Shown: piece by piece, positions 4,262 through 52,098 of the stretch
Layout of the letters: each line of letters begins with the position of its first letter
Numbering within the stretch: the first letter of the stretch is position 1
Source of the DNA: Xylographa opegraphella
Lineage: Eukaryota
Reading direction: 5' to 3'
Length of the DNA: 64,000 nucleotides
NCBI GenBank assembly: GCA_022813865.1
Contig: JALDZX010000052.1
Location: 62,001 to 126,000, forward strand
Made by a program: the position numbers and the translations under genes
Notes under the pieces: model-generated
The model's input: the letters and a program-made list of their open reading frames with translations, nothing else
Database searches by the model: none
What the model was told of the DNA's origin: nothing

Positions 4262-5145
4262 AACTGCAGGCGTAAGAGGACGTTGACATTCATCAACCAC
4301 AACGAGAGACCAGAAGCACTCCAAAACGCCGAGACCGGATCTCTCACGGTCGGTCAGCGTGGACCGTACGCAACGGACATGGCGGGGGGGTGGGGCGCTG
4401 GGGGAGGGGGGGGGCGGGGAGGGGTTGAGGGACGGGGGAAGTGATGGGGGAGAATTGGTATGAGGCGAGATGTCGAGGAAGTCGCGTTGTGTTGACGGAG
4501 GCAGGTGAAGAGCAGAGAAGAAATGGCGGTGGAGGTGAAGGTGGAAGTTGAAAAGTGCAGTGAGGAAATCCACGAGATCGTGGAGACGGTGGTCCGCAGC
4601 TACGATCGCGCGGGCAGAGTAATGGTAAGGCAGCTACTCGGTACAAAGTATAAAAGCACGTTAGAAAGCGCGCGCGCTATTATTGGCACACCTCCGTCTG
4701 CAGCCTGCAGGCACTAAGGTAGGAGGCAATCCTCTTGACCGACGGAAGTCCCGAGCACTGGCCCGGCCGCTTGTGACGGATTGTAATAGTACAAACGCCG
4801 CGTGAAGTGTCCGGCGGAAGCAGAGGAAGAATCAAAAGCTGAACAATGGGATGCTGAAGTTGGAGATGCTTGCACTGATCGGGCTGGCGTGGGGTCCAGC
4901 GCCGGAATCAACAACACTCGCGCTCTCGCCCTTCTTGCTCCAACTACCTTAGCTACTTTATCCAAACCTCTTGCATGCGTCGAGCCCTCCAGTACGCCAT
5001 GTGGGCGCACGCTCGACGCCCGCGGATCTAGACTAGGTATCTAGATAGATAGCCAATGACTTTCGACATCGTCGTCCGGCAGACTCACAGGGAACGTCGG
5101 GCCTTGCTGGATCCCCTCCTTCTGCCCTCGTTACCGTGAGCTGTC

Positions 5146-29750: not shown

Positions 29751-31992
29751 ATGGCGTTCAAGTCGATGCTTCTCGTTCTGCTGGCCACCGTAAGCCACAT
29801 TGGTGTGGCCCAGTTGGTTTCAACCGGTATGACAGCAGTCCTCAATGACATTCCATATTATATTCCTGCTGCTCCGGTCGCAACGATACAGATCCGCCCG
29901 AATCAGCTGAATGCGGGAAGTTCTGCGGCCGGTCTGGTGCCTTTGACTGTCGTTGGGACGACTTCCCTTACGTTCAATGAATCTGATCTTGAGGTGATAA
30001 TTGCCAACTATGCGGCCAGCGATGATGTGTTCCAGACCGGCTTTCTCCAAGGTACGTGTAGCCTTCGTCTGTTTCTGTGGGCGCAAAATCACTGCTTTCT
30101 AAGGACGAGCCTTTTGGTTTGCGTGGCGGCTTTTTGTTGCACAGCTGTTTGCCTCGTGGCTTTGCTTACAGTTTGCGATTGAGTCCAAGTTTCCTTAATA
30201 GAGGTTCTTCGGGATCTTACTAGTGGCAAATGTATACTGATGTTGGTTAGCGATTTATATTGAGTATACGGGAAGTCTCGCTCCTGGCCCCAAAACACCA
30301 TTCACGACGTCGGTTGCTTCCAACGTGACTCTGCTGGGGACCTCGATCGATAACCCAGCGGAGATCCTGGGCTCTAGTTTGGCCCCTGGACCCTACTTTG
30401 TGTCTTCTACTGGTAGCATCTTTCAGGCTTACAGACTCTACTCTGACTTTGCTGGAGCATTTACCCAACCCTTGATCCCAGCGGCAAATGGTACATATGC
30501 TGCTTTACCTGCCGCTATCCCCGGTATTCAAGGACCATCGACGGTTGCAGTTCCATCCCGTCTTTACTACGCAGTTACACCGGAGCAACCACTGGCTGGC
30601 ATAAGACTAGGAGTCAAGGATATATACGACATTGCCGGAGTGAAGACCAGTGACGGCAATCGTGCCTGGTATAATTTGTATCCTGCCGCCAATGTATCGG
30701 CCCTTGCTGTGCAGAGATTGATCGACGCTGGTGCTGTGATAGTTGGTAAAATGAAGACGAGTCAATTTGCCAACGGCGAGGAAGCTACGGCGGATTGGTG
30801 GGTTTTTCTAATCTGGTTGATCTAGTCTTGCTCAACCTTATTTGCAGGGTTGATTACCACTCTCCTTTCAACCCTAGGGGCGATGGCTACCAAGACCCTT
30901 CATCCTCATCTTCCGGACCAGGTGCAGGAATGGGATCATACCCTTGGCTCGATCTTACCATCGGCTCAGACACGGGAGGTTCCATACGCGGGCCATCCCA
31001 GGTGCAAGGCCTGTTTGGCAATCGACCATCACATGGTCTTGTCGCCCTCACTGGAGTTATGCCACTTGCTCCACAGCTCGACACTGGTGGATTCTTGTGC
31101 CGTGACCCCTCAATTTGGGCTGCCGCAGGCAAGGTTTTGTACCCTCAATTAACCTTTTATAACCAATACCCAAAGATCATCCAGACCATTGGCTTCCCGG
31201 AATCAGGTGATACGGACTCTGATGCTCTTGTACTGAGTTTCTTGAGCAAACTCGGGTCCTTTTTGTCTGCGAAGACAACCGTTCTGAACTTGACTACGCT
31301 ATGGGAAGCCACAAAACCGGCGTTTGCACCAGCATCACTGACCTCGTTGTTGAACCTTACATATCCTATACTCATTTCAAAAGAGCAGATTATGCTTGTC
31401 AGAGATCCATTTTATGCTGATTACGCTGCTATTCATGATGGTCGACTTCCTTTTGTGGATCCTGCGCCGCTCGCCCGCTGGGCGTTCGGGGACTCTTATC
31501 CAAACTCAACTCTGACGGACGCAATCAATAACAAAACGACGTTTATGGATTGGTGGAGCATGTATGTTACCAAGAATGACTCGGTCACTTGCTCAGATAG
31601 TCTAGTTCTGTATGTTGGAAGTACGGCGGATCGCCAGAACTACCGAAACCAATACAGTGGGTACGTACAAACCGAATGAGATTGGGAGCGGGAGCTGCCA
31701 GTTATGCTAATACCATTGTTGCTGTAGTCCTCCGGGGATCCCGTATGGGTTCAGCAGTGGCCGCATATCACCTTTCAGCGAAGTGCCTGATATGGTTGTA
31801 CCCATTGGCCAGGCTTCATACTTCTCTAATATTACTCTACATACGGAATATCTCCCTGTAACGATTGACTTCCTTGCAGCCAAGGGTTGCGACGGAATGA
31901 TTTTCCAGTTGATCGAGGATCTAAGGGCGGCTGGGATCGTCAATGCCACTCTGGCCGGACAGACTATTGATGGAGGGCAGATACTTTTCTAG
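29751..31992 (+). CDS. Secreted amidase-signature family protein (GatA-like amidase)
   Basis: Signal peptide [14 protein letters not shown]. Catalytic Lys in [45 protein letters not shown]. Introns at about 30052-30250, 30798-30848 and 31661-31728. Confidence 0.87.
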
Positions 31993-32442
31993 TTTGGCAT
32001 TTCTTGGAAGAGTACCTAGCATGCTTCTCTTTCAAAGTTTTTCTCCAGTGTTTTCATCCTCGACAGAGGGTGGATACTGCATAACGATTGAAAATTTCAA
32101 TATAGTATATTAAATAATAAAACAAAAACGTAATACAATTGAAAGCGCCATTTTCGATACGAACTTTGTTCGAGTTATTTATATTAATATAAGCTAAAGC
32201 TATAGCTCTTTACAAATTAATTCTATACTTTTTACCATCAACCTTCGAAATAATAACGATACGATTTGAACAATTATCATTAACTTCCAGAATCGTGCCA
32301 ATTACTTGACTGTAACTACGATCATTGGTTAAGGATTACGAGTCGTGCGTCTTATTTTCTTCTTCATTAACACGACCGAATTCCAGGCCTCAGCCTTGAC
32401 GACATTCATATATTACACTCTACAAAATTTTGTCGAAATCGA

Positions 32443-32600
32443 GGCATCTTGGCCGAGTGGTTATGGCGCAGGGTAAGCTCACCAAAATCCAAGATTCCGC
32501 ACCGGCCCAGATATTGACTTTATCCCCCCCCCCCCCAGTTTCAGGTCCATATCTCATACCTGTTGGTAAAACAGCGAGGGTTCGAATCCCTCAGATGTCA
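32443..32600 (+). tRNA. tRNA-Leu(CAG), interrupted by two introns (32473-32538 spliceosomal-type; 32546-32556 canonical 37/38)
   Basis: Acceptor stem GGCATCT/AGATGTC plus discriminator A. D arm GCC-GAGTGGTTAT-GGC. After removing both inserts the anticodon arm is CAGGT-TTCAGGT-ACCTG (5 Watson-Crick pairs, U33, CAG, G37). 13-nt class II variable arm, T arm GAGGG-TTCGAAT-CCCTC, T5 terminator. Confidence 0.9.
32473..32538 (+). other. Putative spliceosomal (GT-AG) intron within the tRNA gene, between tRNA positions 30 and 31
   Basis: 5' GTAAGC, branch-like TATTGAC (32512-32518), pyrimidine tract TTTAT-C13, 3' CAG. At 66 nt it is the same size class as mRNA introns in this window. Exact GT..AG excision restores the anticodon stem. 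Confidence 0.8.
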
Positions 32601-32605
32601 TTTTT
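32601..32605 (+). terminator. RNA polymerase III terminator (T-run)
   Basis: TTTTT immediately after the tRNA discriminator base, followed by another T4 run. Confidence 0.8.
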
Positions 32606-33560
32606 GTTCTTTTGCTTCTGCATGCTACGAAAACTGTGTGTAAGCGGTCGTGGATACTTGATCTTATGCGGGGATAAGCCTCGGCGTTCGGGTCTGAGCA
32701 GGTGCCACGCCAGGGCGAGGATTTTGAGTCACCTAAATGCACGTTAAGAGACGATACCTTACTTTATCCCGAAGACCGCGACTTTTCATATTTCTTACTG
32801 TGAACTCTATCCTGGGATAGAATGGGGGTTTATTCCAGATTTTCTATTTTGACGGTCTGCTGTATCCTATTCGGCATTCCTCTAGTCACAACACGCCTTT
32901 CGGTACTCACGAACTACATGAAGCGTACGATGGGGGATCGTGTGCCTGTGTACGTTTTGGGGAGGCTACCCTTAGGACCATCGTGGCCGATATGGACAAT
33001 GGCGAATGAACTCCTAGAGTCGCAGTTCCACTAGGACGACCAGGGAGAGTGTATGAATGATTATTATAGGAAGGGTGAAGAAGTTTACGGTTACAGGCAT
33101 TGGTATAATTGCTGTATGGCTGATGGTACGATACACATCTGTTCGCTCTTGGTATGAGGGACACGTCGATACGAGGTCCTCCAACCCAAATCTGCATGTA
33201 GTCAAGTGAGATCAAGATGGATATGGTATTCCGGGATTGCCTCTTGTGCATGCCACATGCTCTCGAAGAAATGATGGGTTCTTCTGGGTCGATAGAGCGA
33301 CGTGGGAGCCTCTTCAGCTGTGGGTATGGTCTAGGTATGGACATGTATCAAATATTAGCACCAGGCTTGGAAATTCGCTGGCTCATTCACTGGCTTGTGC
33401 CTCGAAGTTTCTCAAAATTTCGGTTTTTGAAGGTTAAGCTTCACTCATGTCTTCACGACTAGGAAATCTGTATAGTGTGTGTTCTTTGCCATATTATATC
33501 CAGGCAAATGGCATGTCACCGTATTGTGTGTGATTGAGGACAGTGTTCCGATCAGACCGT

Positions 33561-34463
33561 CTATATCAGACTGATGATATGTCCCGGTCCAGACCAATCC
33601 GGGTCTGATTCAGTCTGAGGGACAAATGAGCCGATTCTTGTGCCATCGCGTGCCATAGTATAGATTTCAGCACTCCCCTTGCTGTGGCTCACGATTTTCC
33701 GAAGGTCACCAGATACGTGCGGAATCAAAGTGGTTGGGGACTGCCAGGACTTGAACGTTAGACCGTAGGAACCTTCTCGTAAGAAACGCAGGCAGGCCCC
33801 GACAGGTATTACCACTGCGCCGCCCGGGCTCATAATCTGAGGGACAAAAGAACCAGTTCTTTTGCTATCGCGATAGCAGTATATTTCAGCACGTAGGATT
33901 CCCACAATTATGTCCCTGTCTTGAGCGAGAGTCGAATAGCTTTCGGGTCAAGCTCGCCAGAGAGCACAACCGTATTGCAGAATTGGAGCATTGCATTCAG
34001 CTACTTCTTCCTCAAAGCCATCACGCCTCGGGTCACATACTCCGGAGTATTGACGCTGTGCACGACGCCCACCGATCTTTGATATCGATACAGTGTGCTC
34101 CATGGCACATTCGGCTACAGAGCGTTCATGAATAGTTGCGTTCTCGTCCACTGAGCGTTTGGTGATGCTGCGATTGACATGGTACTACATGTTAGTGACC
34201 CCGTGAGGATTGCAATCGAGGCAGGAGAGATAACCTGACCGCTTGAAAAGTCAAGCTTTTCGTCATGAGGAAGCCGATTCCATCATTGCTGTATTATGCA
34301 GATATGATACTCTATCCGTCTGCTAAGACATGTCAATTGGTACAGATATCGCAGTCTCAATATTATGTCCAGGGCCTAGATGTATTTCCGGCACATAATT
34401 TCAACAGATTATTCAGCAAAGGATACAGTTGTCAAGCCAAGCAAGGGCAGAAGAGATGGACAT
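33561..34463 (-). pseudogene. Possible decayed secreted-protein gene with an internal duplication
   Basis: ORFs 33948..34151 and 33561..33905 share a frame separated by one TGA. There is a branch/acceptor CACTAACATGTAG upstream, a frameshifted signal-peptide-like segment after ATG 34463, and a repeated peptide AEIY..RD..R.GSFVPQ. Confidence 0.3.
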
Positions 34464-34917
34464 TATTGTACTGTGTAAGGTACACCGTAGAGTAGTTTTA
34501 GTGGTGGTCCGACTGTGGAGTCCAAGAGCACGCTATCCTAAACCCTAGCGCCATTTTGCCATTTCGTCATTTCGTCAATTACCGAACTTCCCAAATTTTC
34601 CCCGTGAAGACACACACACACCTAACGGTAGATACCTTAGAATAGATATTTAGTCTACCTTCAAACGACCAGACTACCTTACCATGACCTATCGATCTTC
34701 GCTCTGCACTAACTAACAGAAGCCCGTCCGTTCCACCAACAGCCGTACCTTCCCCAGATTGACGTCACGGCCAATTCTTTCACTATTGATGACCCAACGA
34801 TCAAGTGATGGCTGTCAAAGTAGTGCCCCTTCGCTCTCGAGTTTCTCCATTGTTGCGACGTTTTACTCCTTGCGTGTCCTTCTCCCCCTGTCTCAAGCAA
34901 TTGAACAATAAATTCCA

Positions 34918-37068
34918 ATGCAGTCATTTCTACAGTACCGGCGCTTCAGAAAAAACGTCACTTCCCAATATGAGGCTCATCGTGAAAAAGTACTGGCATC
35001 GGATCGCAATCGACATAATAGTGGAGAATCGTCTCCTACGTTAGGCCGCATCTCAAACACAGACCTTCCGCCTTCAAGGCTTTCGTCCAATAGGCAGGAT
35101 CCGGAGAAGGCCGAGTCTCTCGATCAACAAGGTTTTGAGGGAGGAGATGAAGGCGCTGAAGTGGCTTCGTCTACATCCGACAACCGACTGGAAGCAGATC
35201 GCCGTCCAGAATTCAGCCCGTTAAGAACAGCGCAAACTCAACACAGTGTTGGCACTAACATAGGCTATGCTATGACTGGCATTGAGGTGCGGGATCGAAC
35301 ACGCTCGAAGGAAATGGCAGGAGGCAATAGTAAAGTCTTTGTGGTTGGGTATGAGGGAGAGGACGACATGATGGTATATAGCTTGCCACTTGACTCCTCC
35401 AGCCGCTGACTCTCTTTCATGCAGAATCCCCACAATTGGAGTCGATCGACGAGGTGGGGAGCTACGTGAGTTACCAACACCGATGGCCCCTGATCGAATG
35501 CTTACAACCATAAGGGGCACAATTGCGTCAATCGGCTGGATCGTTGGATTTGCCTCAAGTATCGATTCGGGAGCACTGCCACAAGCTGCCGCAGAATTTG
35601 GAGTGAGCGAAGTTACAGAGTCCCTAGCTACTGGGCTCTTTCTCATTGGCTTCGGATGTGGCGCGCTCATTGCTGGCCCAATATCGGAGACTGTGGGTAG
35701 GAATCCTGTCTACATTACTACGCTGTCCCTCTACATGATCTTTGTCATGGCATCAGGACTCGCCCCAAATATCGGAGCACAATTGGCCTTTCGGTTCCTG
35801 GCTGGGCTCTTCGGCTCGACGCCATTGACCTGCGCAGGCGGCTCCGTCTCCGACCTGTGGTCTCCTATGGAGAGGACCTATGCCTTTCCGGTTTTTGCCA
35901 ATGCTGCTTTTATGGGGCCTATCTTTGGTAAGTAGTCCAAGTCGAATTCATTCCAATGGTGCCAATTGACCTTGTGCGAGAAATGTCTGTTTATATGTCT
36001 TACCGATCGTTGCCTTCTATTTGTTGATTATTTATTATTGATACCCCTAATTCACTTTTCGACTTCTGTTTTTAGCATCCTACGGCCATACCATTAATTC
36101 GTCTAGTAACACACACTCCTTACTAATCACCTCCTCAATCAGGTCCTGTTGTCGGCGGCTTCATCGGTCAAAATACCAACATCACTTGGCGCTGGGTCGA
36201 ATGGGTCGCATTGATCATCTCTGGCCTCATCCTAGTCCTCGTCGTCCTTTTTCAACCCGAAACCTACCCCCCTATCCTCCTCAAATGGAAAGCTGCACAC
36301 CTCCGCGCTGTCACCGGCGAGCCACGCTATCGTGCGGAAGTCGAGATTCGCGAGGACACGTTTTTCCGGCGCATTCGGACCGCGCTCTACCGTCCCTTTT
36401 TGCTCACCTTTCGCGAGCCCATCATTATGCTCTTCGCTCTGTATCTCACAGTCATCTACATCATGCTCTTCACCTTCCTAAACGGCTATACCTTCATTTT
36501 CACCGAAATCTACGGCTTATCGCAGGGGCTCACCGGCCTTGCTTTCCTCGGCATCGCCATCGGCCTATGTAGCGCCTCGTTACTCGTGCCCATCATATAC
36601 CGTTGGGCACAGAATGACCTCGCGAAGATCAAAGCTGCAGGCGGCGAACGCCTGCCGCCGGAGTTTCGCCTTTGGTTCAGCATGTTCGGTGCGCCAGCGG
36701 TTCCTATCTCCATGTTCTGGATGGCCTGGACGTCCTATCCGTCCATCTCGGTGTGGTCGCCGCTGGCAGCGACTGTGTTGTTCGGCTACGGTATTTTGTG
36801 TATCTTCATCAGCTGCTACCAGTACATCATTGACAGCTATGAGGTATTCTCGGCCAGCGCCCTCGCCAGTGTAACGCTAATTCGATATGTGGCGGCGGGC
36901 GGCATGGTCGAAGTGGCAATACCAATGTATACGAAGCTGGGGGTGCACTGGACGCTGAGTTTGCTGGGGTTCTTGAGCTTACTACTGGTACCGGTGCCGT
37001 ATTTGTTCTATTTTTATGGGCCAAGGATACGGAAGATGAGCAAGTATGCTGTCGTTCATGATGATTGA
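34918..37068 (+). CDS. MFS transporter, drug:H+ antiporter-1 (DHA1) family
   Basis: NPHNWS motif, GPISETVGRNPVY, RFLAGLFGSTPLTCAGGSVSDLWSPMER, WRWVEW, PETYPPILL, PPEFRL. Introns at about 35373-35424, 35466-35514 and 35928-36141. Confidence 0.9.
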
Positions 37069-37506: not shown

Positions 37507-39144
37507 CTAGCCGCTCCCAACACTAACACCAGCCGGCATCGCAGGAGGAGGCCCGCCGGTTCCGGTTCTCTTTTTTTCCTTCTTTGCCCATCGTACTGCG
37601 TGACGTTAGCACTATGTCTCGGATCTTAGAGCATGAGCCAGGGTTCAACACACATCCGCAAGCATTGCACAATGTCTTTGGCCCATTGGGCCCCTTTCTC
37701 CACTCGGGCGAGTCCAGCGTTCCGCAATCGGTGCACACGTATTCGTCTGCAACTTTCATCTTCTTTTTCTTATCGCCGCTCCGATTGTCCTTGTCGGCCG
37801 GGATGGCGATCCCTGCGTCCCCTCGGACCAGCATGGGGCTGGCATCCCCAGTGCTGATGCCCATCGAGCGCTCTCCTTCCCGGTACCGTAGCCCCGTGAT
37901 CATCTCTATGGAGTCAATGTGCGTCGCGCCTTCATACCGCGCCATCTTGTCGTTGATGCTGTCAGGCTTCAGAGTCGCGTTCGCTTCGTCGAGGTTCTGT
38001 TGTGTGAGCAGCATACTTGACACGCTGGGTTTCGCGGGCGGCGGCATCCCGTTGTAGTCGTTGGATTGGCCGGAGGTCATAGACGCGGAGCCTAGGTTCT
38101 CTGACTCGGTGCGCTGTGTTTCCGAGGGCGTGACGCTGCTGTGATTCTCTTGTTTCTTGACCCAGTGCCGTTGCTGGGCTTCCGCATCCTCCTGCTCCTC
38201 CTTGCGGAGATCCGCGATCCGCTTGTTCAGCCGTTCGTTCTCGATCTTGTGTTCCAGGAAGGAGTCCAACAGATTCGCGTTCTTGGTCGGATACGGTCGT
38301 GCCATCATAAAGAAGCCACGGCAGAAACCCGCCGCGTTGTTGGGGCCGAAAGCCGCCGCCTCGGACGTTAGGTGCGGGTGACCGTGTGATTCGAAGATCA
38401 CGTAAGAGCCGTCTGCTTTTCGGAAGCGGTAGAAGAAACGGAGGGGATTGCCGGACGCAATACTCTCGTTGAATTCGCGCACGAAGATCACGTTGTCGTC
38501 AGGGTGGATGAAGTCGCCGATGAACTTACCCACAAGTTCACTCTGGTCGTAGCCTGTGAGCGGCTTCCCAGAGGGAGAGATGTAAAGGATACGCCCATCG
38601 GGTGTGAGGATATGTAGGAAGTCTTTGAGTTCTTCGAGCACACGCTGGGACCAGTTGCGGCGTTTGGTAAATTCTGTAAGTGTGCTACCGCCGTTGGCAC
38701 TGGCCTGGGCACCAAACCCTGTGGGAAGAGGGCCTGCACCGGCGCCGGTGAGAGGGACATTCGTGAGGGCGGTGGAATCATTCTGATCGGATAGTTGTTG
38801 CGGTTGTTGTTGTTGTTGTTGTTGCTGCTGCTGCTGTTGGGGGTGGAGCTGGGTGTCGACCGAATTGTAGCTCTGCGGGTCCCGGTCGTTGAGGCTGAGG
38901 CCGAGACTCATGGGCAGCATATCGACATCGAGGCCTGTCATCATGTCGCCGCCCTGCTCGAGCATCTCGGTCATCGTGGCATCGCCAGTTGCCATACCTC
39001 CCATCTGCGGGTGCGCTGTTAGCACTTTCTTCATGGAAGTCTTGGTGGCAGACATTGTGGGTGCGATTGAACCTTACATCAGTGGAAAGATGAGCGACCA
39101 ATCCATCCGGCCCTGTGTCGTACATCGACATCTCCAGCGATCAT
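37507..39144 (-). CDS. wc-2: White collar-2 / LreB: PAS domain plus GATA zinc finger transcription factor
   Basis: [28 protein letters not shown] domain ([24 protein letters not shown]), coiled coil, GATA finger [36 protein letters not shown]. Predicted first exon MIAGDVD; last intron lies within the zinc finger. Confidence 0.93.
38794..38840 (-). repeat. CAG/CAA trinucleotide repeat encoding poly-Gln in WC-2
   Basis: (tgt)n(tgc)n tract on the + strand, translating to about 12 Q, P, QQ. Confidence 0.85.
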
Positions 39145-39530: not shown

Positions 39531-42500
39531 ATGTAGGTCTCTTCCATCTGTAAGACTCTGATTAAACTTATCGCTAATTCTGCTACAGGTGTGAGTTTAT
39601 AGACTCCAGTCAGCCGACTCCTCTCACATATAGACACTAATAGCCCTTCATAGCGAAAATTGACAAGCTTCTCATTCTTGGGTACCAGACTCTCTAAGCG
39701 GGCTATCTCCCCAGCTAACCAGTTGTTCTAAAGAGTGAGGTCTTTTGACAATGCACACCCCGAGGCAATTCAATTCAATACCCCACTAACGCTTATTGTG
39801 GGCTACAATGGATCTGGGAAGACGGTGAGTCACGATCCATTGATCGAGTCTCCTTTCCTGATGCTAGGGGATAATAGACTATCATCGAGTGCCTCAAATA
39901 TGCCACCACTGGGGAGCTCCCGCCTAATAGCAAGGGCGGGGCTTTTATCCACGATCCAAAGGTATAAACGTCTCCACCAATACGTTAAGTTACGGAGCTC
40001 ATGACTTGTGTAGCTGGCAGGGGAGAAAGAAGTCCTGGCCCAGGTGAAGCTTTCATTCAAAAGCACTTCTGGAGCAAAAATGGTGGCAACCAGGAGTCTA
40101 CAGTTGACTGTCAAGAAATTAGTGAGGGCGCAAAAGACTTTGGACTGTACCCTCCTTATGGCGAAAAACGGCGAGAAAACAACCATTTCTTCAAGAGTCG
40201 CAGAGCTGGATCAAATTCTACCACAATATCTCGGGGTCTCTCGAGCGGTCCTGGACTCTGTTATTTTCTGTCACCAGGATGAGAGCCTTTGGCCAATGAG
40301 CGAGCCAAGCGCTCTTAAGAAGAAGTTCGACGAGATTTTCGAGGCGCTAAAGTACACAAAGGCAATCGATAACATCAAAGCACTGCGGAAGAAGCAGAAT
40401 GAGGAATTAGGAAAGTACAAGATCATGGAGCAGCACGCTAAGGAAGACAAAGACAAAGCTGACAGGGTAAGCTCTTGTGGCTGACGAGGCCGATTGCTAT
40501 CACAGTGAGACTGACATGAGGACTCAGGCGGAGAAGAAGTCCAAGGAACTATCGGACGAAATTGAAACATTGCGGGTCGAGACCAAAGATCTTCATACCA
40601 AAGCTAGGGATGCTAGGGACAAATCCCAGCATGCATGGAATCAAGTAGCCGCTTACACCGAGGTGGTCGAATCTCTCAAGGTTGCGCGGAAAAACCAAGA
40701 ATGGTACGAAAAACATCTGAAGGACCTGGCGCAAGACCTCAAGGAGCGCAGTGAATCGGATGAGTGGTTGCAGACTGAGCTGGACCAATACGAGGAACGT
40801 ATGCAAATCCATGATCAGCGTCAAAAAGAACAGACTAGGCGCTACGAAGATGTCAAACGAGAGATCACACAAATAAGGAAGAACCAGAGTGAGAAGCGTG
40901 TTGAAGCTGGTAAGCACGAAGAGCGAAAGGTTACACATTTGAACAAGATCGAAAATCGCAATCTTGAAATCAAGCAAACCGCGAAAGAGCACAACATCCA
41001 TGGATATGACACGGAGCTCGACGATATGGAAATTTCTGAGTATATTGACAAGATCACAAAGCGTAGCAAGGATCAAAACGCTAAGATGGAACGACTACGT
41101 CGTGATACAATGTTAGAAATTCAAAAAGTCCAGGAAGTTCTTGATTCACTGCGGGAACGACGGTCCGCTTTGCAAGAAGGTAAGAAAGCGGCGAAAGATC
41201 AAATGAGTGGTAACGACAAGAAAATCGCGTCTTTATACTCGGAGCTAAACAGTATCACTACGGACGAAGGAGGAAAGGCGGCATTAGAGTCCAATATCGC
41301 TGACCTTGAGAGCAAATTGACTAAAGCTAAGCAAGATTTGATGAGCGGTGCCTTGGATGCCAAAATCGAAGAAGTCAACGCCGAGCTTCGATCTCTGGAA
41401 GACAAGAACGCGACCTTGAACAAGGAACTTATACAAGGAACCAAGCAAGCCGGGAACCTCGCAAGACTCGATCATCTGAAAAAGGAATCGACGGATCGGG
41501 AGCGAAGCCTTAAAACCATGACAGGTGCCCACGGTGAACGTTTTCGGAGCATCATTGGCCAATCATGGCAAGCTGCAACCCTAGAGGTAGACTTTCAACG
41601 CGTTATGGATTTACGGACGCAGCAGGTCAAAGACGCGGAACGACAACGGGATGGCATTTCTAGGGAACTCGAACAGCTTGAGTTTAAGCTGAAGACTGCC
41701 CGTGCCGATGCAAAGAAATGGGAGGGCGAAGTACAAGACTGCGCGCAGATTTTGATAGATATCACAAACGGAGAACCTGATGATTACCCTGAAATTCTCG
41801 CCGCTATCCAGAGTGATAGAGACACTCGGAAATATGACGTTGATGGCTATGCAATACTTAAGAAATGGTATGGCGAGTGTATCGAAACAGCCAAATCGAA
41901 AGAACCTGCCTGCCGATTATGTAATAGGGCCTTTACTGAGGAGAAAGCTGTCAGACTGTTTGTTTCGAAGCTGGAGAACAAAGTTTCGAAGCGGGCACTG
42001 GATGAGCTTCAAAAAGACTTGGAAGACCTCGATGCGGATCTCGAAAAGGCTAGAGAGGCCAGCACGACTTACGACACATGGAGAAGATTATCTGAAAAGG
42101 AACTGCCTAGTTTGCGTAAAGAAATCACCAAGCTCGAGCGCAATCGGGAAACGTTGCTGCGTCAAATTGAAAAGCATGACAAGGTCGTTGAGGATAAGGA
42201 GGAGGCAAGGCGAGATGCGGAAACTTTATCAAAGCCGGTTGCAAACGTAGTTAAGTACGCTCACGAATATGCCAGCTATCAAAGTCAGATCCAGGAGCTT
42301 GTCGAAAAGCAGCAAGACATCGGGCTGTCTCGAACCCTGGAGGATCTGCAGGATGAGATTGAGTCCAATGGGGCGAAATCACGTACACTACGAACAAGCC
42401 TCACTAAGCTGCAGAACGATGACAAACGTAGTCGTGGACAAGTTAGCTCTTTCGAGGTCGAGCTTTCGCGATTAAAAAACCGACTATCAAGCGTAAGCCA

Positions 42501-43877
42501 CGAGCTAGAGAAGAGAACGAACATTTTGTCTCAAATCGAAGACGTGAAGAAATCTAATCACGAACAACGAGAGGCAATCACCAGGCTTGATGAACAATTG
42601 CAAAGCCTAGCGCCTCAATTTTCGGAGCAGGAAGCCAGACGTGATGACATCAAGCAACGTGGTGACGCGAGAGATAAGGAGTTGCAGAGAGAGGCAAGGA
42701 ATCTGTCAGACAGCGTCCGGAATCTTCAGCGAGCGGACCTTGAGATTCGAACATACATAGAAGAGGGAGGTCCGGCTAAGCTTGCGAAATGTCAGAGAGA
42801 TATTCAAGGGTTTGAGCAGGATATCACTCAATTGGAGGCGGAGCTGAAGCAGATCACGATCGAAATCAATAAGATCAGGGAAGAGCTGGCCAATCAGGAT
42901 CAAAACAAAAGGGTGATCAACGACAACCTGAAATTCCGTAAGACTCGCCGCGAGCTTGAAGCTGTCAAGGTTGAGATCCAGGAGCTTAGTGCCCAAAACG
43001 CGGAAGCGGATCAGGAGCATCACAGGATTCAGGCGGAGAAGTTCCAGCGACAGCACAATCTGTATAGTACAGAAGAAACCAGCAAGATGGGCATCATGAA
43101 GGCCAAGGATGATCAACTGGGGCAACTTCTGGAAGACTGGAATACGGATTACAAGGATGCTGCATATAAGTTCAAAAAGTCCCATATCGAAGTGGAGGCA
43201 AGAAGCCGTTTTCTTCTAATCATGTTCCAGAGACTAATATGTGCTAGACTACCAAAGCGGCGGTGGAAGATCTTGGACGCTATGGCAGTGCATTGGACAA
43301 GTATTTCGAAAATGATTCTGTCCTTCTCTGCCAACGACTGACGATAGTTAGGGCGATCATGAAGTACCACAGTCTCAAGATGGAGGAGATCAACCGGATC
43401 ATCGAAGAGCTATGGAAGCGGACGTACCAGGGCACAGACGTCGACACGGTGCTCATCCGGTCCGACAACGAGACCGCGAAAGGCAACCGGTCGTACAATT
43501 ATCGAGTCTGCATGCTGAAACAGGACGTGGAGATGGATATGCGGGGCCGGTGCAGCGCCGGCCAGAAGGTGCTGGCGTGCATCATCATCCGCCTGGCGTT
43601 GGCCGAGTGCTTTGGAGTCAACTGCGGCCTGATCGCGTTGGACGAACCGACGACAAATCTGGATCGGGACAACATCAAGGCGCTGGCGGAGTCGCTGCAC
43701 TACATCATCAAGTCGCGGCAGCAGCAAGCGAACTTCCAGCTGATCGTCATCACGCACGACGAGGACTTCCTCCGATACATGAAGTGCGCGGACTTCTGCG
43801 ACACGTACTACCGGGTGTCGAGGAACGACCGGCAGAAGTCGATCATCGAGAGGCAATCGATCTCGGAGGTGGTGTAG
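39531..43877 (+). CDS. RAD50: DNA repair protein Rad50
   Basis: Spliced N-terminus [16 protein letters not shown], Walker [20 protein letters not shown], long coiled coil with zinc hook CRLC, signature [10 protein letters not shown], Walker [17 protein letters not shown]. Stop TAG 43875-43877. Confidence 0.96.
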
Positions 43878-44934
43878 CGGGTTTTTCGAGCTATGCATCT
43901 GCTGGAGTTTAGTGGTTGGGGGACGACATCGTCCGGGGTAGTCGTTGCTGATGGTTGGGAAAGGTGGCAGTTTTGGAGCTCATGAACAAGATAGCCGACC
44001 ATGTAGCAAGACTGCCAGGATCCACCACGAACAGTTTTCATCGAGCTTTTGATATGACAGTAATGAAGCATATGAATCGGTACCCACCCAGGTGAAACGC
44101 CTTCTGGAGCGCGTTGCGACGAAAGTCTGGCCTGTGGTGTGGGGTGGAGGAGGCGCAGACGTCGGCGGAGTGCCACGGGCACGCAATTGGCGAGATTAGG
44201 GGCCCTCTATTCGCGTCGTGAATGGAAAGCATCACCACTGATGGCTCTCGACTTCTAGCAGCCTCCGACCATGGCCGGCCATAAAGATCGGGGTGACAAA
44301 AGGGTACCATTAAGCGCTGGCATCCTCCGCATTGGCGCCTACGTTCCAGGGGGGTTGCTCCCGGGGCTCTCGGAATTCCTGGTTTGAGCATCGGACTGAT
44401 TAGGTGGTCGCGATGGTGGTCCGGAGCCGAGACGTGTTCTGTGAGCGCGCAAGGCGGGGGGGGACTGCTGGTACTTATTTTAGTTGGCTGAAGGCGGAAT
44501 GTCCAGCGTGTGTTGGGATGGGTGTGAGGGCTGCATGGCCTGAAGCTTTGGGTGGAAGGGGTGAGGAGGGGGGGGGATCGCTGATGGTGCTGCCGGGCAC
44601 GTTACTACCGACACCTAAGGGACTACTCCGTACCGTATGTAGAAGTTAGCTGGGGGACGAATGGGAGGCGGGTCGACGTGCAGGCCGCTATAGAATCCCC
44701 GTAAGGTAAGCAGCATTTAGGTGAAGGCCTGCACCGAGCCGGTTGAATCCTTCAGTGGGCGCTAGTGAGCCGCCTTATGTCCAGGGGTCCGGCTTCTTCT
44801 TCTTCTTCGTTAAGGGTCCGCTGTCCCCCCCCAGCCTTCTTCCCCTAAAGCTCTCGTCGTCCTCAACCATTCCCACCGCCCGAGAAGTCCTCCACCACCA
44901 CCTATCATCACCACCTCACCGACCGCCCACCACC

Positions 44935-46871: not shown

Positions 46872-49731
46872 ATGCAGCTGGTGCCTAAGGAGGTAGGTCA
46901 GACCGTGAGATGCACATTCATCTACATCCAACTGATATCCGCCCAGCTTGACAAGCTCGTCACTTCACAGCTGGGATTGCTGGCGCAGCGCCGCCTGGCT
47001 CGGGGCGTGAAGCTCAACCATGCAGAAGCTACGGTGCGCATATGCAGGTGCAGGTCGACTCCGAGCTGCTCTGACCCTTTTCACGTCCCCCTAGGCATTG
47101 ATCGCAAACAATCTACAGGAAGTATGGCTATGCTCGTCGTCCAATGTGTCTTGCGCTTCACAGACTGAGGCTCTTTTCCGTAGCTCATCCGGGATGGCAA
47201 CCACTCCGTGGCCGACCTCATGCAGATCGGCAAGACGATGCTGGGGCGGCGCCATGTCATGCCCTCGGTCGTTTCGTCCCTGGACGAGATGATGGTAGAA
47301 GGGACCTTCCCCTCGGGCACCTACCTGGTGACCGTACACCATCCGGTGAGTTCGGACGACGGCGATCTGGAGAAGGCGCTCTACGGCAGCTTCTTACCGG
47401 TACCGTCGAAAGACCTCTTCCCATTGCCGGATCCCGCAGTATACGAGCCTAGCAAGCAGCCCGGCGCGGTCGTCCCAGTGAAAGGGAAAAAGATAGTCCT
47501 TCACGAAGGTAAGAAGCGAATCAGGTTGAAGGTTACCAGCAAAGGAGACAGGCCGATACAAGTGAGGGGGATCTGAACCTACTCCCGGTGGTTGATAGAG
47601 CTGAATGCGCCTCAGGTCGGATCACACTACCACTTCATCGAAACCAATCCGCAGCTGGAGTTCGATCGTCTGAAAGCGTACGGATATCTCTTGGACGTAG
47701 CGGCAGGAACATCGGTCCGATTTGAGCCTGGTGACACCAAAACCGTGACTCTGGTCGAGATGAGTGGCCACCGAATAATCAGGGGCGGCAACAATCTTGC
47801 GTCTGGGCATGTGGACATCTCAAACACCGAAGAGATCACTAAGCGGTTGCGCGAAGGCGGCTTCGCCAACGTGCCCGAGCCAGCTGGAGATAGCGCACAT
47901 ATCGACCCCTTCTCCATGACTCGTGACGCTTATTGTGGAATGTATGGTCCCACAACCGGGGACCTTGTTCGCCTTGGATCTACGGATCTGTGGATCAAAG
48001 TTGAAAAGGACTTTACGTCTTATGGCGACGAATGCAGCTTTGGCGGTGGCAAGACATTACGAGAAGGTATGGGACAAGCTAGCGGTCGTAGCGATGCCGA
48101 AAGTCTGGATACCGTCATAACAAACGCGTTGATCGTCGATTGGAGTGGTATCATCAAGGCAGACATTGGCATCAAAGGCGGTGTGATCGTTGGGATTGGC
48201 AAGGCCGGTAACCCGGATGTCATGAACGGTGTGGATCCCGCACTGGTCGTTGGGTCCTGTACCGATGTGATTGCCGGAGAAGGCAGTATAATCACTGCCG
48301 GTGGTTTCGATACCCACATCCATCTGATTTGCCCCCAGCAAGCGTATGAGGCAATCGCGTCTGGCGTTACATCGATGCTCGGCGGGGGCACAGGACCAAG
48401 TACTGGAACGAATGCAACGACATGCACTCCAGGCAAAGAGCACCTGAAGAAGATGCTCCAAGCCTGCGATGAACTCCCTCTGAATTTTGGTATTACTGGG
48501 AAGGGCAACGACAGCGATCCGAAAGCGCTCCAGGAGCAATGCTTGGCTGGAGCAGCGGGCCTCAAGCTTCACGAGGACTGGGGGACTACCCCTGCGGCCA
48601 TTGATACCTGTCTGAGCGTTTGCGACGAATATGATGTCCAGTGTCTAATTCACACGGACACCTTGAACGAGTCCGGGTTCGTCGAGTCTACAATCGCTGC
48701 GTTCAAGAATCGCGCTATTCATACATATCACACAGAAGGTGCAGGCGGTGGACATGCGCCGGATATAATCTCCGTGGTTGAGCACCCCAATGTGCTTCCC
48801 AGCTCCACCAATCCGACTCGACCCTATACCCGAAACACTCTTGATGAACATCTTGACATGCTCATGGTCTGCCATCATCTCTCGAAGAACATCCCAGAGG
48901 ATGTAGCCTTTGCGGAGTCACGTATCCGCGCAGAGACCATTGCGGCCGAAGACGTGCTTCATGACTTAGGAGCCATAAGCATGATGTCTTCGGATTCGCA
49001 AGCCATGGGTCGCTGTGGTGAAGTCATACTACGGACATGGAACACCGCTCACAAGAACAAAGTCCAGCGAGGTACCTTGAAGGAAGATGAAGGCACAGGT
49101 GCGGACAACTTCCGAGTCAAGCGATACATCAGCAAGTACACCATCAATCCTGCCATCACTCAAGGCATGAGCCATATTATCGGAAGTGTGGAGGTTGGCA
49201 AGCTGGCAGATCTCTGCCTTTGGAAGCCCGCGAACTTTGGCACGAAACCGAGCATGGTTATTAAGAGCGGCATGATCTCCTATGCGCAGATGGGAGATCC
49301 GAACGCCTCGATACCCACCGTGGAGCCAGTGATCATGCGGCCTATGTTCGCGGTAGGTCGTTCATGGAACGCTGGTTCAGTTTTTTCATCCGATAATAGT
49401 GCTGATCTGTAACATAGGCTTTTGTCCCTCGCACTTCCATCACGTTCGTGTCCAAAGCGTCTGTGGAATCGGGCATCGTTGCCCAATATGGCCTCAAGAA
49501 ACGCATCGAGGTGGTGAAGGACTGTAGAGATATCGGCAAGAAAGATATGAAGTACAACGACGTGATGCCGAAGATGAAGGTTGATCCCGAAAGCTACGTA
49601 AGTTTTCCGGTGAAGATTGAACTCGAGATGGGCGTACTAACAGCTGCTAGGTTGTGGAAGCGGATGGCATGGTGTGCAAAGCGGAGCCGGCGACGTCGTT
49701 GCCTTTGACTCAACAGTTTTACATATATTAA
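46872..49731 (+). CDS. ure1: Urease (fused gamma-beta-alpha eukaryotic form)
   Basis: [40 protein letters not shown], Ni ligands [53 protein letters not shown]. Six introns; stop TAA 49729-49731. Confidence 0.97.
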
Positions 49732-51284: not shown

Positions 51285-52098
51285 AGCGAAGACATTGGTA
51301 CGGAGGAGGGGTCCATACTTTTACTCAACCTGCTTCATGTTCTGTAGAAGACGCAAATAGACGCTTAGATCGTTTTCTTGCCCGATGAAGGATGATACCA
51401 ATCGGATTTGGGTATCATATTCACATCTCTCCAATGTCTTTTTTTTGGTGAGACTCATTTCATTGGGAGTGCAGGCACAGGGCCGACTGACGAGAATATG
51501 TCACAATCATATCCGCGAGGCCATCTCTCGAGCTCGATATTCCAAGCTCATCTTAACTGGTAAGTAGCATATGCCACCTGTCCGGTTCGAGGGGTGGCAT
51601 CCCTGACACGGTACCCGTATTTTCAATCCGTGGATCACTCGCCAACATTTCCCATCACTCGTCATGATGAGTCGTAGTCAACAGTTTTGACACTGTTGGC
51701 GATCGGGTACTAACCTAGGATCGTGTAGCCCAGAGCAACCGAATCCGGAAATGTCGGCCTCCTCTTGCTTCGTGGGGAGGAGTAGACGAGGAGGAAATGT
51801 ACAAAGGCACAAAATAGCAAGAGAGCTATCCCGACAATGACATTGTTGGCGCGCTCTTGTCTCGTGCAGGGGAACCGAGAGACAATGGATCGCTAGACAA
51901 TGGTAAAAACAAAGGGGCCTGCTGAATGGTATTGTACCTTGGTACTACTATGCCTTTGTCCCCTTCCATTTTCCTATATCAACATCTTCTCCCTCTCTTT
52001 CCTCCTCTTTCCTTCCTCTTTTCTCGCCCGAAACCTACCCCCCCCCCCCCCTCCTACCGACTTCACCACCGCTGAAACCGCTTCCATCTTCTCACACC

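What the first reader, a model, noticed from the sequence alone, without database searches (positions are those of the whole stretch)
32443..32605. tRNA-Leu(CAG) gene containing an apparent spliceosomal (GT-AG) intron in its anticodon stem, plus a canonical tRNA intron
Seen in sequence: a complete Pol III tRNA gene (A box, B box GGTTCGAATCC, paired acceptor, D and T stems, T5 terminator). Its anticodon 5' strand is broken after CAGG (position 30) by a 66-nt insert, 32473-32538. The insert begins GTAAGC, has a branch-like TTGAC with its A 21 nt from the end, a pyrimidine tract and a CAG end, like the mRNA introns of neighbouring genes. Removing exactly GT..AG gives CAGG|T-TT-CAG-G. Removing the further 11 nt at 37/38 (32546-32556) gives a 5-bp CAGGU/ACCUG stem and a 7-nt loop. 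Established: eukaryotic tRNA introns normally sit at 37/38 and are cut by the tRNA splicing endonuclease. Spliceosomal introns are known in some fungal non-coding RNAs (U6 snRNA of fission yeast, rRNA genes of lichen-forming ascomycetes). I do not know of one reported in a tRNA but cannot search the literature. Inference: this pre-tRNA would need two splicing machineries in sequence. The spliceosome would probably act first, because the endonuclease needs a folded anticodon stem.
Basis: partly seen in the sequence, partly recalled or inferred. Interest (0 to 1): 0.95.

Follow-up and report, generated by a model that had tools for sequence, protein, structure and literature searches.

The report
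tRNA gene split by mRNA-type intron
A leucine tRNA gene of a lichen-forming fungus is interrupted in its anticodon stem by a 66-base insert that looks like an ordinary mRNA intron, next to a normal small tRNA intron; if it is really spliced, this would be a natural tRNA that needs two different splicing machines.

Summary
Window 32443-32600 is a type-II tRNA-Leu(CAG) gene with A box, B box, A73 and a T5 terminator. It is readable only after two inserts are removed: 66 nt (32473-32538) between positions 30 and 31, and 11 nt (32546-32556) at the canonical 37/38 site.

Four metagenomic fungal Leu(CAG) genes carry exactly the predicted uninterrupted CAGG|TTTCAGG, and have an intron only at 37/38.

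The 66-nt insert fits the 17 homology-defined mRNA introns of this window in length, 5' site and 3' site. Its branch site is weak. It has no bulge-helix-bulge motif, no group I features and no T run of 4 or more.

The window comes from a Xylographa-like lichen fungus. That group is already known for ectopic spliceosomal introns in rDNA.

Whether the insert is spliced could not be tested. No genome is held, no RNA run was listed, and no orthologous locus was reachable. A dead gene copy remains a serious rival.

A 15-nt stretch of the insert resembles the canonical intron of the homologues. This is unexplained.

The scan noted one similar, unchecked case before, in an alga. Ten paper searches found no published report.

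The parts
32443..32472 (+). tRNA-Leu(CAG) exon 1: positions 1-30 (acceptor 5' strand, D arm, first four bases CAGG of the anticodon stem). Contains the A box at 32450-32460.
   Evidence: The four homologous loci align by blastn to exactly 32443(2)-32472.
32473..32538 (+). 66-nt insert with mRNA-intron signals: 5' site GTAAGC (32473-78), branch-like TTGAC (32514-18, A at 32517), C13 tract (32524-36), 3' site CAG (32536-38).
   Evidence: It is absent from the 4 homologous tRNA genes. No BHB motif. No other copy in the window.
32539..32545 (+). 7-nt middle exon TTTCAGG: position 31, then loop positions 32-37 with anticodon CAG at 32542-44.
   Evidence: The same CAGG|TTTCAGG is contiguous in L012, L032, L053 and L090.
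32546..32556 (+). 11-nt intron at the canonical 37/38 site (TCCATATCTCA).
   Evidence: The homologues carry a 25-26-nt intron at the same site. The anticodon-intron helix is absent here, 0 of 4 pairs.
32557..32600 (+). tRNA exon 3: position 38, anticodon-stem 3' strand ACCTG, long variable arm, T arm with the B box at 32579-89, acceptor 3' strand, discriminator A at 32600.
32601..32605 (+). TTTTT, a Pol III terminator-like run directly after the discriminator. A second TTTT follows at 32610-13.
   Evidence: The longest T run inside the pre-tRNA is 3.

Best explanation
This is a real nuclear tRNA-Leu(CAG) gene of a Xylographa-like lichen fungus. It acquired an mRNA-type (U2-type GT-AG) intron between positions 30 and 31 of the anticodon stem, in addition to the family's normal intron at 37/38.

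[quoted passage not shown] This is the route proposed for fungal U6 and for lichen rDNA introns.

Inferred working:
1. Pol III transcribes the 158-nt precursor. The internal promoter boxes are intact, no T run of 4 or more lies inside, and T5 sits at the end.
2. In the nucleus the spliceosome removes 32473-32538, joining G30 to U31 and completing the 5-bp stem CAGGU/ACCUG.
3. Only then can the tRNA splicing endonuclease and ligase remove the 11-nt intron at 37/38.

Shown here: the gene anatomy, the precise interruption relative to homologues, the resemblance to local introns, and the absence of other intron types' hallmarks. Inferred: transcription, both splicing steps, their order, and use of the tRNA.
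For: (1) Removing exactly the two inserts gives an 81-nt Leu(CAG) tRNA with all stems paired. Rfam tRNA scores 37.7 bits against a gathering score of 29.

(2) 4 of the 120 metagenome loci fetched are fungal-type Leu(CAG) genes with the same D arm. They have CAGG|TTTCAGG contiguous and an intron only at 37/38. Their blastn matches to the window stop at 32472 and resume at 32557.

(3) 17 mRNA introns of the window were defined by spliced alignment to homologous proteins. 14 of the 17 are 49-67 nt long; the insert is 66 nt.

(4) The insert's 5'-site PWM score of 6.3 bits exceeds 11 of 14 reference introns. Its total of 11.9 bits lies inside their range of 8.2-19.2. 155 of 200,000 random 66-mers reach that total. 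1 of 127,868 window 66-mers passes GTRAGY..YTRAY..YAG, and that is the insert itself. RAD50 intron 40467-40527 has the same junction string CAGG|GTAAGCTC.

(5) The first AG after the branch-like A is the proposed 3' site.

(6) No BHB motif: the central helix reaches at most 3 of 4 pairs and the flanking helices at most 2 of 4. No group I match in Rfam at E up to 10. The insert alone folds at only -2.1 kcal/mol.

(7) Compatibility with Pol III: the longest T run is 3, whereas 8 of 17 mRNA introns have T4 or more. The insert has the lowest T content (18%) and the highest C content (42%) of the 18 sequences.

(8) Precedent. S. pombe U6, a Pol III transcript, is spliced by the spliceosome, and U1, U2, U5 and rRNA genes carry such introns (review section read). 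Lichen fungi carry ectopic spliceosomal introns in rDNA, and yeast removed one from Pol I transcripts (passages read). The window's proteins are 90-97% identical to Xylographa proteins.
Against: There is no evidence of transcription or splicing. No RNA run was listed. No genome is held, so the number of other Leu(CAG) genes is unknown. No orthologous locus was found, so conservation of the insert is untested.

The branch signal is weak. The PWM branch score of 2.3 bits is below all 14 reference introns (minimum 4.0), and the PWM prefers CCAGATA to TTGAC.

Given GT and AG at the ends, the rest of the PWM signal is not strong. 455 of 127,868 66-mers have GT..AG, against 155 of 200,000 reaching the full score.

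The host looks like a Pol III gene. In mammalian cells Pol III transcripts were reported not to be spliced (Sisodia et al. 1987, seen only as a title in a reference list).

The 11-nt intron lacks the anticodon-intron pairing that the homologues have.

Part of the insert (32486-32500) resembles, in register, the canonical intron of the homologues. A freshly inserted mRNA intron does not predict this.
Confidence: 0.45

Rival explanations
1. Dead gene copy. The insert is a genuine spliceosomal-type intron sequence that entered one of several redundant Leu(CAG) genes, by reverse splicing and retro-integration or by another precise route. It is not removed productively from the Pol III transcript, so the locus makes no working tRNA.
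For: Splicing is unproven. Insertions at non-canonical places in eukaryotic tRNA genes are usually found in one of many synonymous copies and are taken for pseudogenes (Yoshihisa 2014, passage read). The branch site is weak. The small intron lacks the A-I helix. Pol III transcripts were reported not to be spliced in mammalian cells (title only).
Against: After in-silico removal of the inserts, every stem and the A and B boxes are intact, and the T5 terminator directly follows A73. The insert avoids T runs that would stop Pol III, unlike 8 of 17 local introns. If the spliceosome could insert the intron into this RNA, the forward reaction on the same RNA is chemically plausible (inference). Fungal Pol III U6 precursors are spliced.
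Confidence: 0.33
2. Origin in place. The 5' half of the insert descends from an older, longer tRNA-type intron region, for example after a local duplication or rearrangement that moved the working anticodon loop downstream. The GT..AG ends arose later or by chance. How the piece is removed, if at all, is open.
For: 32486-32500 (AATCCAAGATTCCGC, with the hairpin AATC/CAA/GATT) matches 12 of 15 bases of the conserved block of the canonical intron in L012 and L053, at the same distance (within 1 nt) from CAGG. Under a statistic restricted to collinear diagonals, 8 of 20,000 (L012) and 4 of 20,000 (L053) shuffled inserts reach the observed score, and 92 of 20,000 for L032.
Against: That statistic was chosen after seeing the match. 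Without the collinearity restriction the score is reached by 46 of 5,000 shuffles, by 117 of 5,000 random 66-mers and by 1 of 17 mRNA introns. For L032 it is not significant: 315 and 1,026 of 5,000. The seven bases where the old loop should lie (GTAAGCT against TTTCAGG) share 1 of 7. The insert shows no copy of the tRNA's own 5' half or of the rest of the gene; scores are at chance, 3,371 and 4,994 of 5,000 shuffles. Neutral decay would not spare all 81 tRNA positions.
Confidence: 0.08
3. The 66-nt insert is a non-canonical tRNA intron cut by the tRNA splicing endonuclease, as in archaea, Cyanidioschyzon merolae and nucleomorphs.
For: Introns at 29/30 and 30/31 exist in archaeal tRNAs, and some eukaryotic endonucleases accept ectopic sites (Yoshihisa 2014, passages read).
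Against: No bulge-helix-bulge motif in either orientation, for either of the two equivalent boundary pairs. The central helix reaches at most 3 of 4 pairs and the flanking helices at most 2 of 4. The predicted pairing of the insert with the anticodon and small-intron region is not unusual: 122 of 2,000 shuffles and 4 of 13 real introns do as well. Fungi are not known for such introns (recalled).
Confidence: 0.05
4. Chance or artefact. A random insertion or an assembly error, including a miscounted C homopolymer, that only happens to start with GT and end with AG. Alternatively, a degenerate group I intron of the lichen type.
For: Single locus, single assembly. The C13 run is hard to sequence. 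Lichen fungi have short degenerate group I introns in rDNA (abstract of PMC3160393 in the listing).
Against: The boundaries are exact to the base relative to the homologues. Intron-likeness is rare among random 66-mers. A wrong C count would change neither end. The 5' exon ends in G rather than the U expected before a group I intron (recalled rule). Rfam gives no group I match. The insert has almost no structure.
Confidence: 0.05

Closest known systems
mRNA-type introns in fungal snRNA genes, above all U6 of Schizosaccharomyces pombe (Tani and Ohshima 1989; review PMC5855946, section 14 read)
   Same: A spliceosomal GT-AG intron with canonical 5', branch and 3' signals inside a small non-coding RNA gene transcribed by Pol III. 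It is thought to have arisen by reverse splicing and retro-integration, and is often a species-specific insertion.
   Different: There the host RNA is part of the spliceosome, which explains how the intron got in. Here the host is a tRNA, which has no such proximity and already has its own, unrelated splicing system. Splicing of S. pombe U6 is shown; here it is not.
Ectopic spliceosomal introns in the rDNA of lichen-forming ascomycetes (Bhattacharya et al. 2000, seen only as a citation; Armaleo and Chiou 2021, PMC8527467, passages read)
   Same: The same group of organisms: the window is from a Xylographa-like lichen fungus. Short introns (57 bp in Cladonia grayi) with mRNA-type signals sit in a gene not transcribed by Pol II. 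Such introns are removed from mature rRNA, and yeast spliced one out of Pol I transcripts.
   Different: The host is rRNA (Pol I), not tRNA (Pol III). There are many cases with phylogenetic support, against one locus here without RNA or comparative support.
Non-canonical and multiple tRNA introns of archaea, C. merolae and nucleomorphs (PMC4090602, passages read; PMC13578239, passages read)
   Same: A tRNA gene with two interruptions, one at 37/38 and one in the anticodon stem at 30/31, a position also used in archaea. One must be removed before the other site can form.
   Different: Those introns are defined by bulge-helix-bulge motifs and cut by the tRNA endonuclease. This insert has no such motif and carries GT..AG, a 5' splice-site consensus and a pyrimidine tract instead.
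Canonical eukaryotic tRNA intron at 37/38
   Same: The 11-nt insert sits exactly there, and the homologous Leu(CAG) genes have an intron at the same site.
   Different: It is shorter than in the homologues (11 nt against 25-26 nt) and lacks the anticodon-intron pairing, 0 of 4 pairs. By my reading of the sequences, L012 has three such pairs.
Engineered yeast tRNA gene carrying a pre-mRNA intron (recalled: Koehrer, Vogel and Domdey, EMBO J 1990; not found by searches, and a guessed id was not held)
   Same: As I recall it, a Pol III pre-tRNA with an mRNA intron was spliced by the pre-mRNA pathway in yeast. That would be the direct experimental model for this locus.
   Different: Treat it as a lead only.
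   Same: An alanine tRNA gene of an Ostreococcus-like alga, described as split by an mRNA-type intron.
   Different: Another kingdom and another tRNA. It is an unchecked AI note that I did not test.

Membership tests
Eukaryotic nuclear type-II tRNA-Leu gene | Cloverleaf with 7-bp acceptor, D, anticodon and T stems; long variable arm; A73; anticodon CAG with U33 and G37. | tested here: met
   Met only after removal of both inserts. ARAGORN calls an 81-nt tRNA-Leu(cag). Rfam RF00005 scores 37.7 bits against 29.
Eukaryotic nuclear type-II tRNA-Leu gene | Internal Pol III promoter (A and B boxes) and an oligo-T terminator, with no T run inside. | tested here: met
   TGGCCGAGTGG at 32450-60; GGTTCGAATCC at 32579-89, the only match in the window; T5 at 32601-05; longest internal T run is 3. 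The consensus forms of the boxes are recalled.
Eukaryotic nuclear type-II tRNA-Leu gene | Expressed, aminoacylated tRNA. | not testable with these tools
   No RNA run was listed.
Spliceosomal (U2-type GT-AG) intron | A 5' splice site matching the local consensus. | tested here: met
   AGG|GTAAGC scores 6.3 bits, above 11 of 14 reference introns. The junction string is identical to that of RAD50 intron 40467-40527.
Spliceosomal (U2-type GT-AG) intron | Branch site YTRAY 10-40 nt before the 3' end. | tested here: inconclusive
   TTGAC with its A 21 nt from the end fits the loose rule. Its PWM score of 2.3 bits is below all 14 reference introns. TTGAT-type branch candidates occur in reference introns 47562-47615 and 39825-39877.
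Spliceosomal (U2-type GT-AG) intron | 3' YAG that is the first AG after the branch; length within the local range. | tested here: met
   CAG at 32536-38, with no AG between 32518 and 32536. The insert is 66 nt; 14 of the 17 local introns are 49-67 nt.
Spliceosomal (U2-type GT-AG) intron | Removal seen in RNA (junction reads, lariat). | not testable with these tools
   No RNA run was listed, and the cap for that tool was used.
Spliceosomal (U2-type GT-AG) intron | Host transcript made by Pol II (the usual case). | tested here: not met
   The host has the anatomy of a Pol III tRNA gene. Exceptions are known: U6 and rRNA.
BHB-type (endonuclease) non-canonical tRNA intron | Two 3-nt bulges holding the cut sites, separated by a 4-bp helix and flanked by helices. 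| tested here: not met
   Both orientations and both equivalent boundary pairs were tried. The central helix reaches at most 3 of 4 pairs and the flanking helices at most 2 of 4. The geometry used is recalled.
Canonical eukaryotic tRNA intron (the 11-nt insert) | Position 37/38. | tested here: met
   the homologues have an intron at the same site.
Canonical eukaryotic tRNA intron (the 11-nt insert) | Anticodon-intron pairing that places the 3' cut in a bulge. | tested here: not met
   0 of 4 pairs between positions 32-35 and intron positions -6 to -3.
Group I intron (including degenerate lichen forms) | Conserved P1-P9 core, U before the 5' cut, G at the 3' end. | tested here: not met
   No Rfam match at E up to 10. 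The insert folds at -2.1 kcal/mol. The exon ends in G. The U/G rule is recalled.
Introner-like or transposon-derived intron | Many near-identical copies in the genome; target-site duplication. | tested here: inconclusive
   There is no second copy in the 64-kb window and no duplication at the ends. The rest of the genome is not held.

The most novel reading that the evidence does not exclude
A natural tRNA whose maturation needs two unrelated splicing systems in series. The spliceosome first removes an mRNA-type intron from the anticodon stem of a Pol III pre-tRNA. Only then can the tRNA endonuclease and ligase remove the canonical intron. This would extend the lichen fungi's habit of placing spliceosomal introns in non-mRNA genes from rRNA to tRNA, and would show that tRNA transcripts are targets of intron gain by reverse splicing.
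Probability: 0.42. Interest if true: 0.85.

Novelty: new variant of a known kind. Interest (0 to 1): 0.7.

Why it matters
Spliceosomal introns in non-coding RNA genes are rare. They bear on how introns are gained (reverse splicing into abundant RNAs) and on whether the spliceosome is tied to Pol II transcription.

tRNAs are the one RNA class with a dedicated protein-only splicing system. Reviews read here in part treat the eukaryotic intron types as separate, each with its own substrates. A tRNA needing both systems would break that separation, and it would be easy to test by RT-PCR.

It would also expose a blind spot in annotation. The standard scans used here missed the gene, and tRNAscan-SE looks for non-canonical introns only in archaeal mode (passages read). 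More such genes may therefore sit unannotated in fungal genomes.

If the locus is instead a dead copy, it still records a precise intron gain in a tRNA gene.

Tried and rejected
RNA evidence: the look-up of sequencing runs on window 30000-35000 listed no RNA holder (none was listed, which does not mean none exists). Read laying therefore could not be used.

Genome: none is held. Counting Leu(CAG) genes and scanning other tRNA genes for inserts was limited to the window, which has one B box and one tRNA. Two extra ARAGORN calls at a relaxed threshold lie inside long ORFs, and I took them for false positives.

Orthologues:
- The 22-nt 3' end of the tRNA gave 0 metagenome hits.
4 of the 120 are relevant. 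None of the 120 shows a tRNA with an insert after CAGG. In 5 of the 120, GT follows CAGG, but none of these is a tRNA with an intron-like insert.
- The prokaryote genome collection gave 0 hits.
- The records behind the four loci are not held, and their flanks share nothing else with the window.

An ab initio intron list (49 candidates) mixed true and false introns. It was replaced by homology-based junctions.

Ideas tested and dropped:
- A helix between the insert (32509-20) and the anticodon plus small intron (32543-54) looked like a surrogate anticodon-intron helix. It is not unusual: 122 of 2,000 shuffles and 4 of 13 real introns do as well.
- A single 77-nt intron giving 'tRNA-Glu(ctc)', ARAGORN's reading. 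It has a G.A mismatch in the stem and a long variable arm that Glu tRNAs lack.
- The insert as a repeat: there are no other copies in the window.
- The insert as a copy of the tRNA's own 5' half: scores are at chance.

Earlier findings of the scan: searches gave nothing relevant.

Literature: all ten searches found no report of a spliceosomal intron in a natural tRNA gene. Subscription journals are largely outside that library. Supplements were not consulted.
Full report
**What is there**

Window 32443-32600 (+) reads as a tRNA gene whose anticodon arm is broken.
- The acceptor strands GGCATCT and AGATGTC pair over 7 bp, one of them G.T.
- The D arm carries a perfect A box (TGGCCGAGTGG, 32450-60).
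- The T arm carries GGTTCGAATCC (32579-89), the only such match in 64 kb.
- A long variable arm and discriminator A (32600) mark a type-II Leu tRNA.
- TTTTT follows at 32601-05.

ARAGORN in default mode finds no tRNA in the window. Rfam at gathering thresholds with default filters reports none either. On the short stretch, with laxer filters, Rfam's tRNA model scores 37.7 bits (gathering score 29, E = 1.1e-6) over 32443-32600, with 86 unaligned bases in the anticodon arm.

I removed pieces by coordinates in a script.
- The intact locus and the locus lacking only the 11 nt give no gene in default mode.
- Removing only the 66 nt gives a misread Pro(agg).
- Removing both 32473-32538 and 32546-32556 gives an 81-nt tRNA-Leu(CAG). 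It has a 5-bp stem CAGGT/ACCTG and the loop TTCAGGT.
- With its intron option, ARAGORN reads the intact locus as 'Glu(ctc)' with one 77-nt intron. That reading has a G.A mismatch and a variable arm that Glu tRNAs do not have, so I reject it.
- The same product also follows from boundaries 32472-32537, which are not GT-AG.

**Comparison with relatives**

No genome is held for the window. The exact 22-nt 3' end of the tRNA has no match in the metagenome collection.

Most are bacterial tRNAs or coding DNA. Four (L012, L053, L032, L090; two pairs of near-identical loci) are fungal-type Leu(CAG) genes with the same D arm. In them CAGG is followed directly by TTTCAGG, then a 25-26-nt intron at 37/38, then TACCTG.

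Their blastn matches to the window cover 32443(2)-32472 and 32557-32605 and beyond, and nothing else. So the 66 nt is an insertion relative to homologues, exact to the base, and the 37/38 intron is a family trait. Differences in the acceptor (pair 5:68) and T stems are compensated (by eye). None of the 120 loci shows a tRNA with an insert after CAGG.

**The organism**

The window's urease is 97% identical to a protein named Xylographa pallens. Its amidase is 93% identical to X. trunciseda. Its RAD50 is 90% and 85% identical to X. vitiligo and X. trunciseda. The window is therefore from a Xylographa-like lichen-forming ascomycete.

The tRNA lies about 450 bp downstream of the amidase stop (CDS 29751-31989). 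It faces the 3' end of an ORF on the minus strand (32907-33344).

**Is the insert like the local mRNA introns?**

I defined 17 introns by spliced alignment of homologous proteins: urease 5, amidase 3, RAD50 6, an MFS transporter 3.
- Fourteen of the 17 are 49-67 nt; the others are 199, 215 and 215... more exactly 199 and 215 nt plus one further long case as listed. The insert is 66 nt.
- Local 5' sites are loose: GTGCGC, GTATGG, GTAAGT, and one GC-AG.

A PWM from 14 of these introns gives the insert 6.3 bits at the 5' site (above 11 of 14), 3.3 bits at the 3' site, but only 2.3 bits at the branch (below all 14). The total is 11.9 bits, against a leave-one-out range of 8.2-19.2. 155 of 200,000 random 66-mers reach that total.

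Under a stricter rule, written after seeing the insert (GTRAGY, YTRAY 10-40 nt from the end, YAG), 1 of 127,868 window 66-mers passes, and that is the insert itself. Only 4 of the 17 real introns pass.

RAD50 intron 40467-40527 shares the 12-nt junction CAGG|GTAAGCTC but nothing further. The insert has no other copy in the window.

**Other kinds of intron**

I tested bulge-helix-bulge geometry (recalled: two 3-nt bulges, cuts after the second bulge base, a 4-bp central helix) in both orientations and for both boundary pairs. The best central helix has 3 of 4 pairs and the flanking helices at most 2 of 4. Rfam gives no group I match. The insert alone folds at -2.1 kcal/mol.

A predicted helix between 32509-20 and 32543-54 is not unusual.

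The 11-nt intron has none of the anticodon-intron pairs, 0 of 4. By my reading of the sequences, the L012 intron has three such pairs and a 6-bp hairpin.

**Compatibility with Pol III**

The precursor has no T run longer than 3. In contrast, 8 of 17 mRNA introns have T4 or more, and 4 of 17 have T5 or more. The insert's pyrimidine tract is C13, and the insert has the lowest T and the highest C content of the 18 sequences.

This is what a Pol III host would demand, but it is only suggestive. The A-to-B box distance of about 129 nt is within what long natural tRNA introns impose: introns of 6-133 nt and a 113-nt case.

**An unexplained detail**

MAFFT aligned 32486-32500 of the insert with the conserved block of the homologues' canonical intron. 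12 of 15 bases are identical, there is a similar small hairpin, and the distance from CAGG is the same to within 1 nt.
- Without a position constraint the score is reached by 46 of 5,000 shuffles, by 117 of 5,000 random 66-mers and by 1 of 17 mRNA introns. For L032 it is not significant.
- With a collinearity constraint chosen after the fact, it is reached by 8 and 4 of 20,000 shuffles (L012, L053) and by 92 of 20,000 (L032).

The insert holds no copy of the tRNA's own 5' half. The place where an old loop would lie shares 1 of 7 bases with TTTCAGG. I keep this as a low-probability rival (origin in place) and as a reason for caution.

**Literature**

Passages or sections read:
- S. pombe's Pol III U6 gene has an intron removed by the spliceosome. 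U1, U2, U5 and rRNA genes have such introns too, and reverse splicing is the favoured origin (PMC5855946).
- Lichen fungi carry ectopic spliceosomal introns in rDNA, and yeast removed one from Pol I transcripts (PMC8527467).
- Non-canonical insertions in eukaryotic tRNA genes are mostly taken for pseudogenes, outside nucleomorphs and red algae (PMC4090602).
- Reviews of 2023, 2025 and 2026 list tRNA introns and spliceosomal introns as separate classes and name no overlap.
- tRNAscan-SE seeks non-canonical introns only in archaeal mode.

Sisodia et al. 1987 (Pol III transcripts not spliced) was seen only as a title. An engineered yeast tRNA with an mRNA intron (Koehrer et al. 1990) is recalled and was not found.

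None of the ten searches found a natural tRNA gene with a spliceosomal intron.

The scan's own notes hold one unchecked parallel, in an Ostreococcus-like alga (e1-4091646).

**Verdict**

The insert is best read as an mRNA-type intron sitting precisely in a tRNA gene of a lichen fungus. Whether it is spliced is open.

My estimates:
- About 0.45 that the locus yields a working tRNA through spliceosome and then endonuclease.
- About 0.33 that it is a dead copy.
- The remainder is spread over origin in place, endonuclease removal and artefact.

Noticed in passing
window 48055-48348 (-): Rfam '5_ureB_sRNA' matches at 109.7 bits, antisense inside the fungal urease coding exon (47616-49352). It most likely reflects conservation of the urease coding sequence rather than a small RNA gene.
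   Followed up: partly
window 40463-40474 and 32469-32480: RAD50 intron 4 (40467-40527) and the tRNA insert share the 12-nt string CAGGGTAAGCTC across the 5' junction. The rest of the two introns is unrelated.
   Followed up: partly
window 43198-43247 (+): RAD50 has a GC-AG intron (GCAAGA...CTAG), supported by 3 of the 4 homologues used.
   Followed up: no
window 32486-32500; L012, L053: A 15-nt block of the insert resembles, in register, the conserved block of the canonical intron of the homologous Leu(CAG) genes. In those homologues the block GAGATTCG is also the reverse complement of their own T arm, by eye.
   Followed up: partly
window 52038-52051, 4406-4414, 44568-44576: Other long homopolymer runs occur (C14, G9, G9), so the C13 of the insert is not unique in this DNA.
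   Followed up: no
window 30052-30250 (+): The first amidase intron comes out at 199 nt, far above the usual 50-67 nt. It may hide a small exon or reflect the annotation of the homologue used.
   Followed up: no
window 37523-39073 (-): An ORF with PAS and GATA zinc-finger domains, like the white-collar light regulators of fungi.
   Followed up: no
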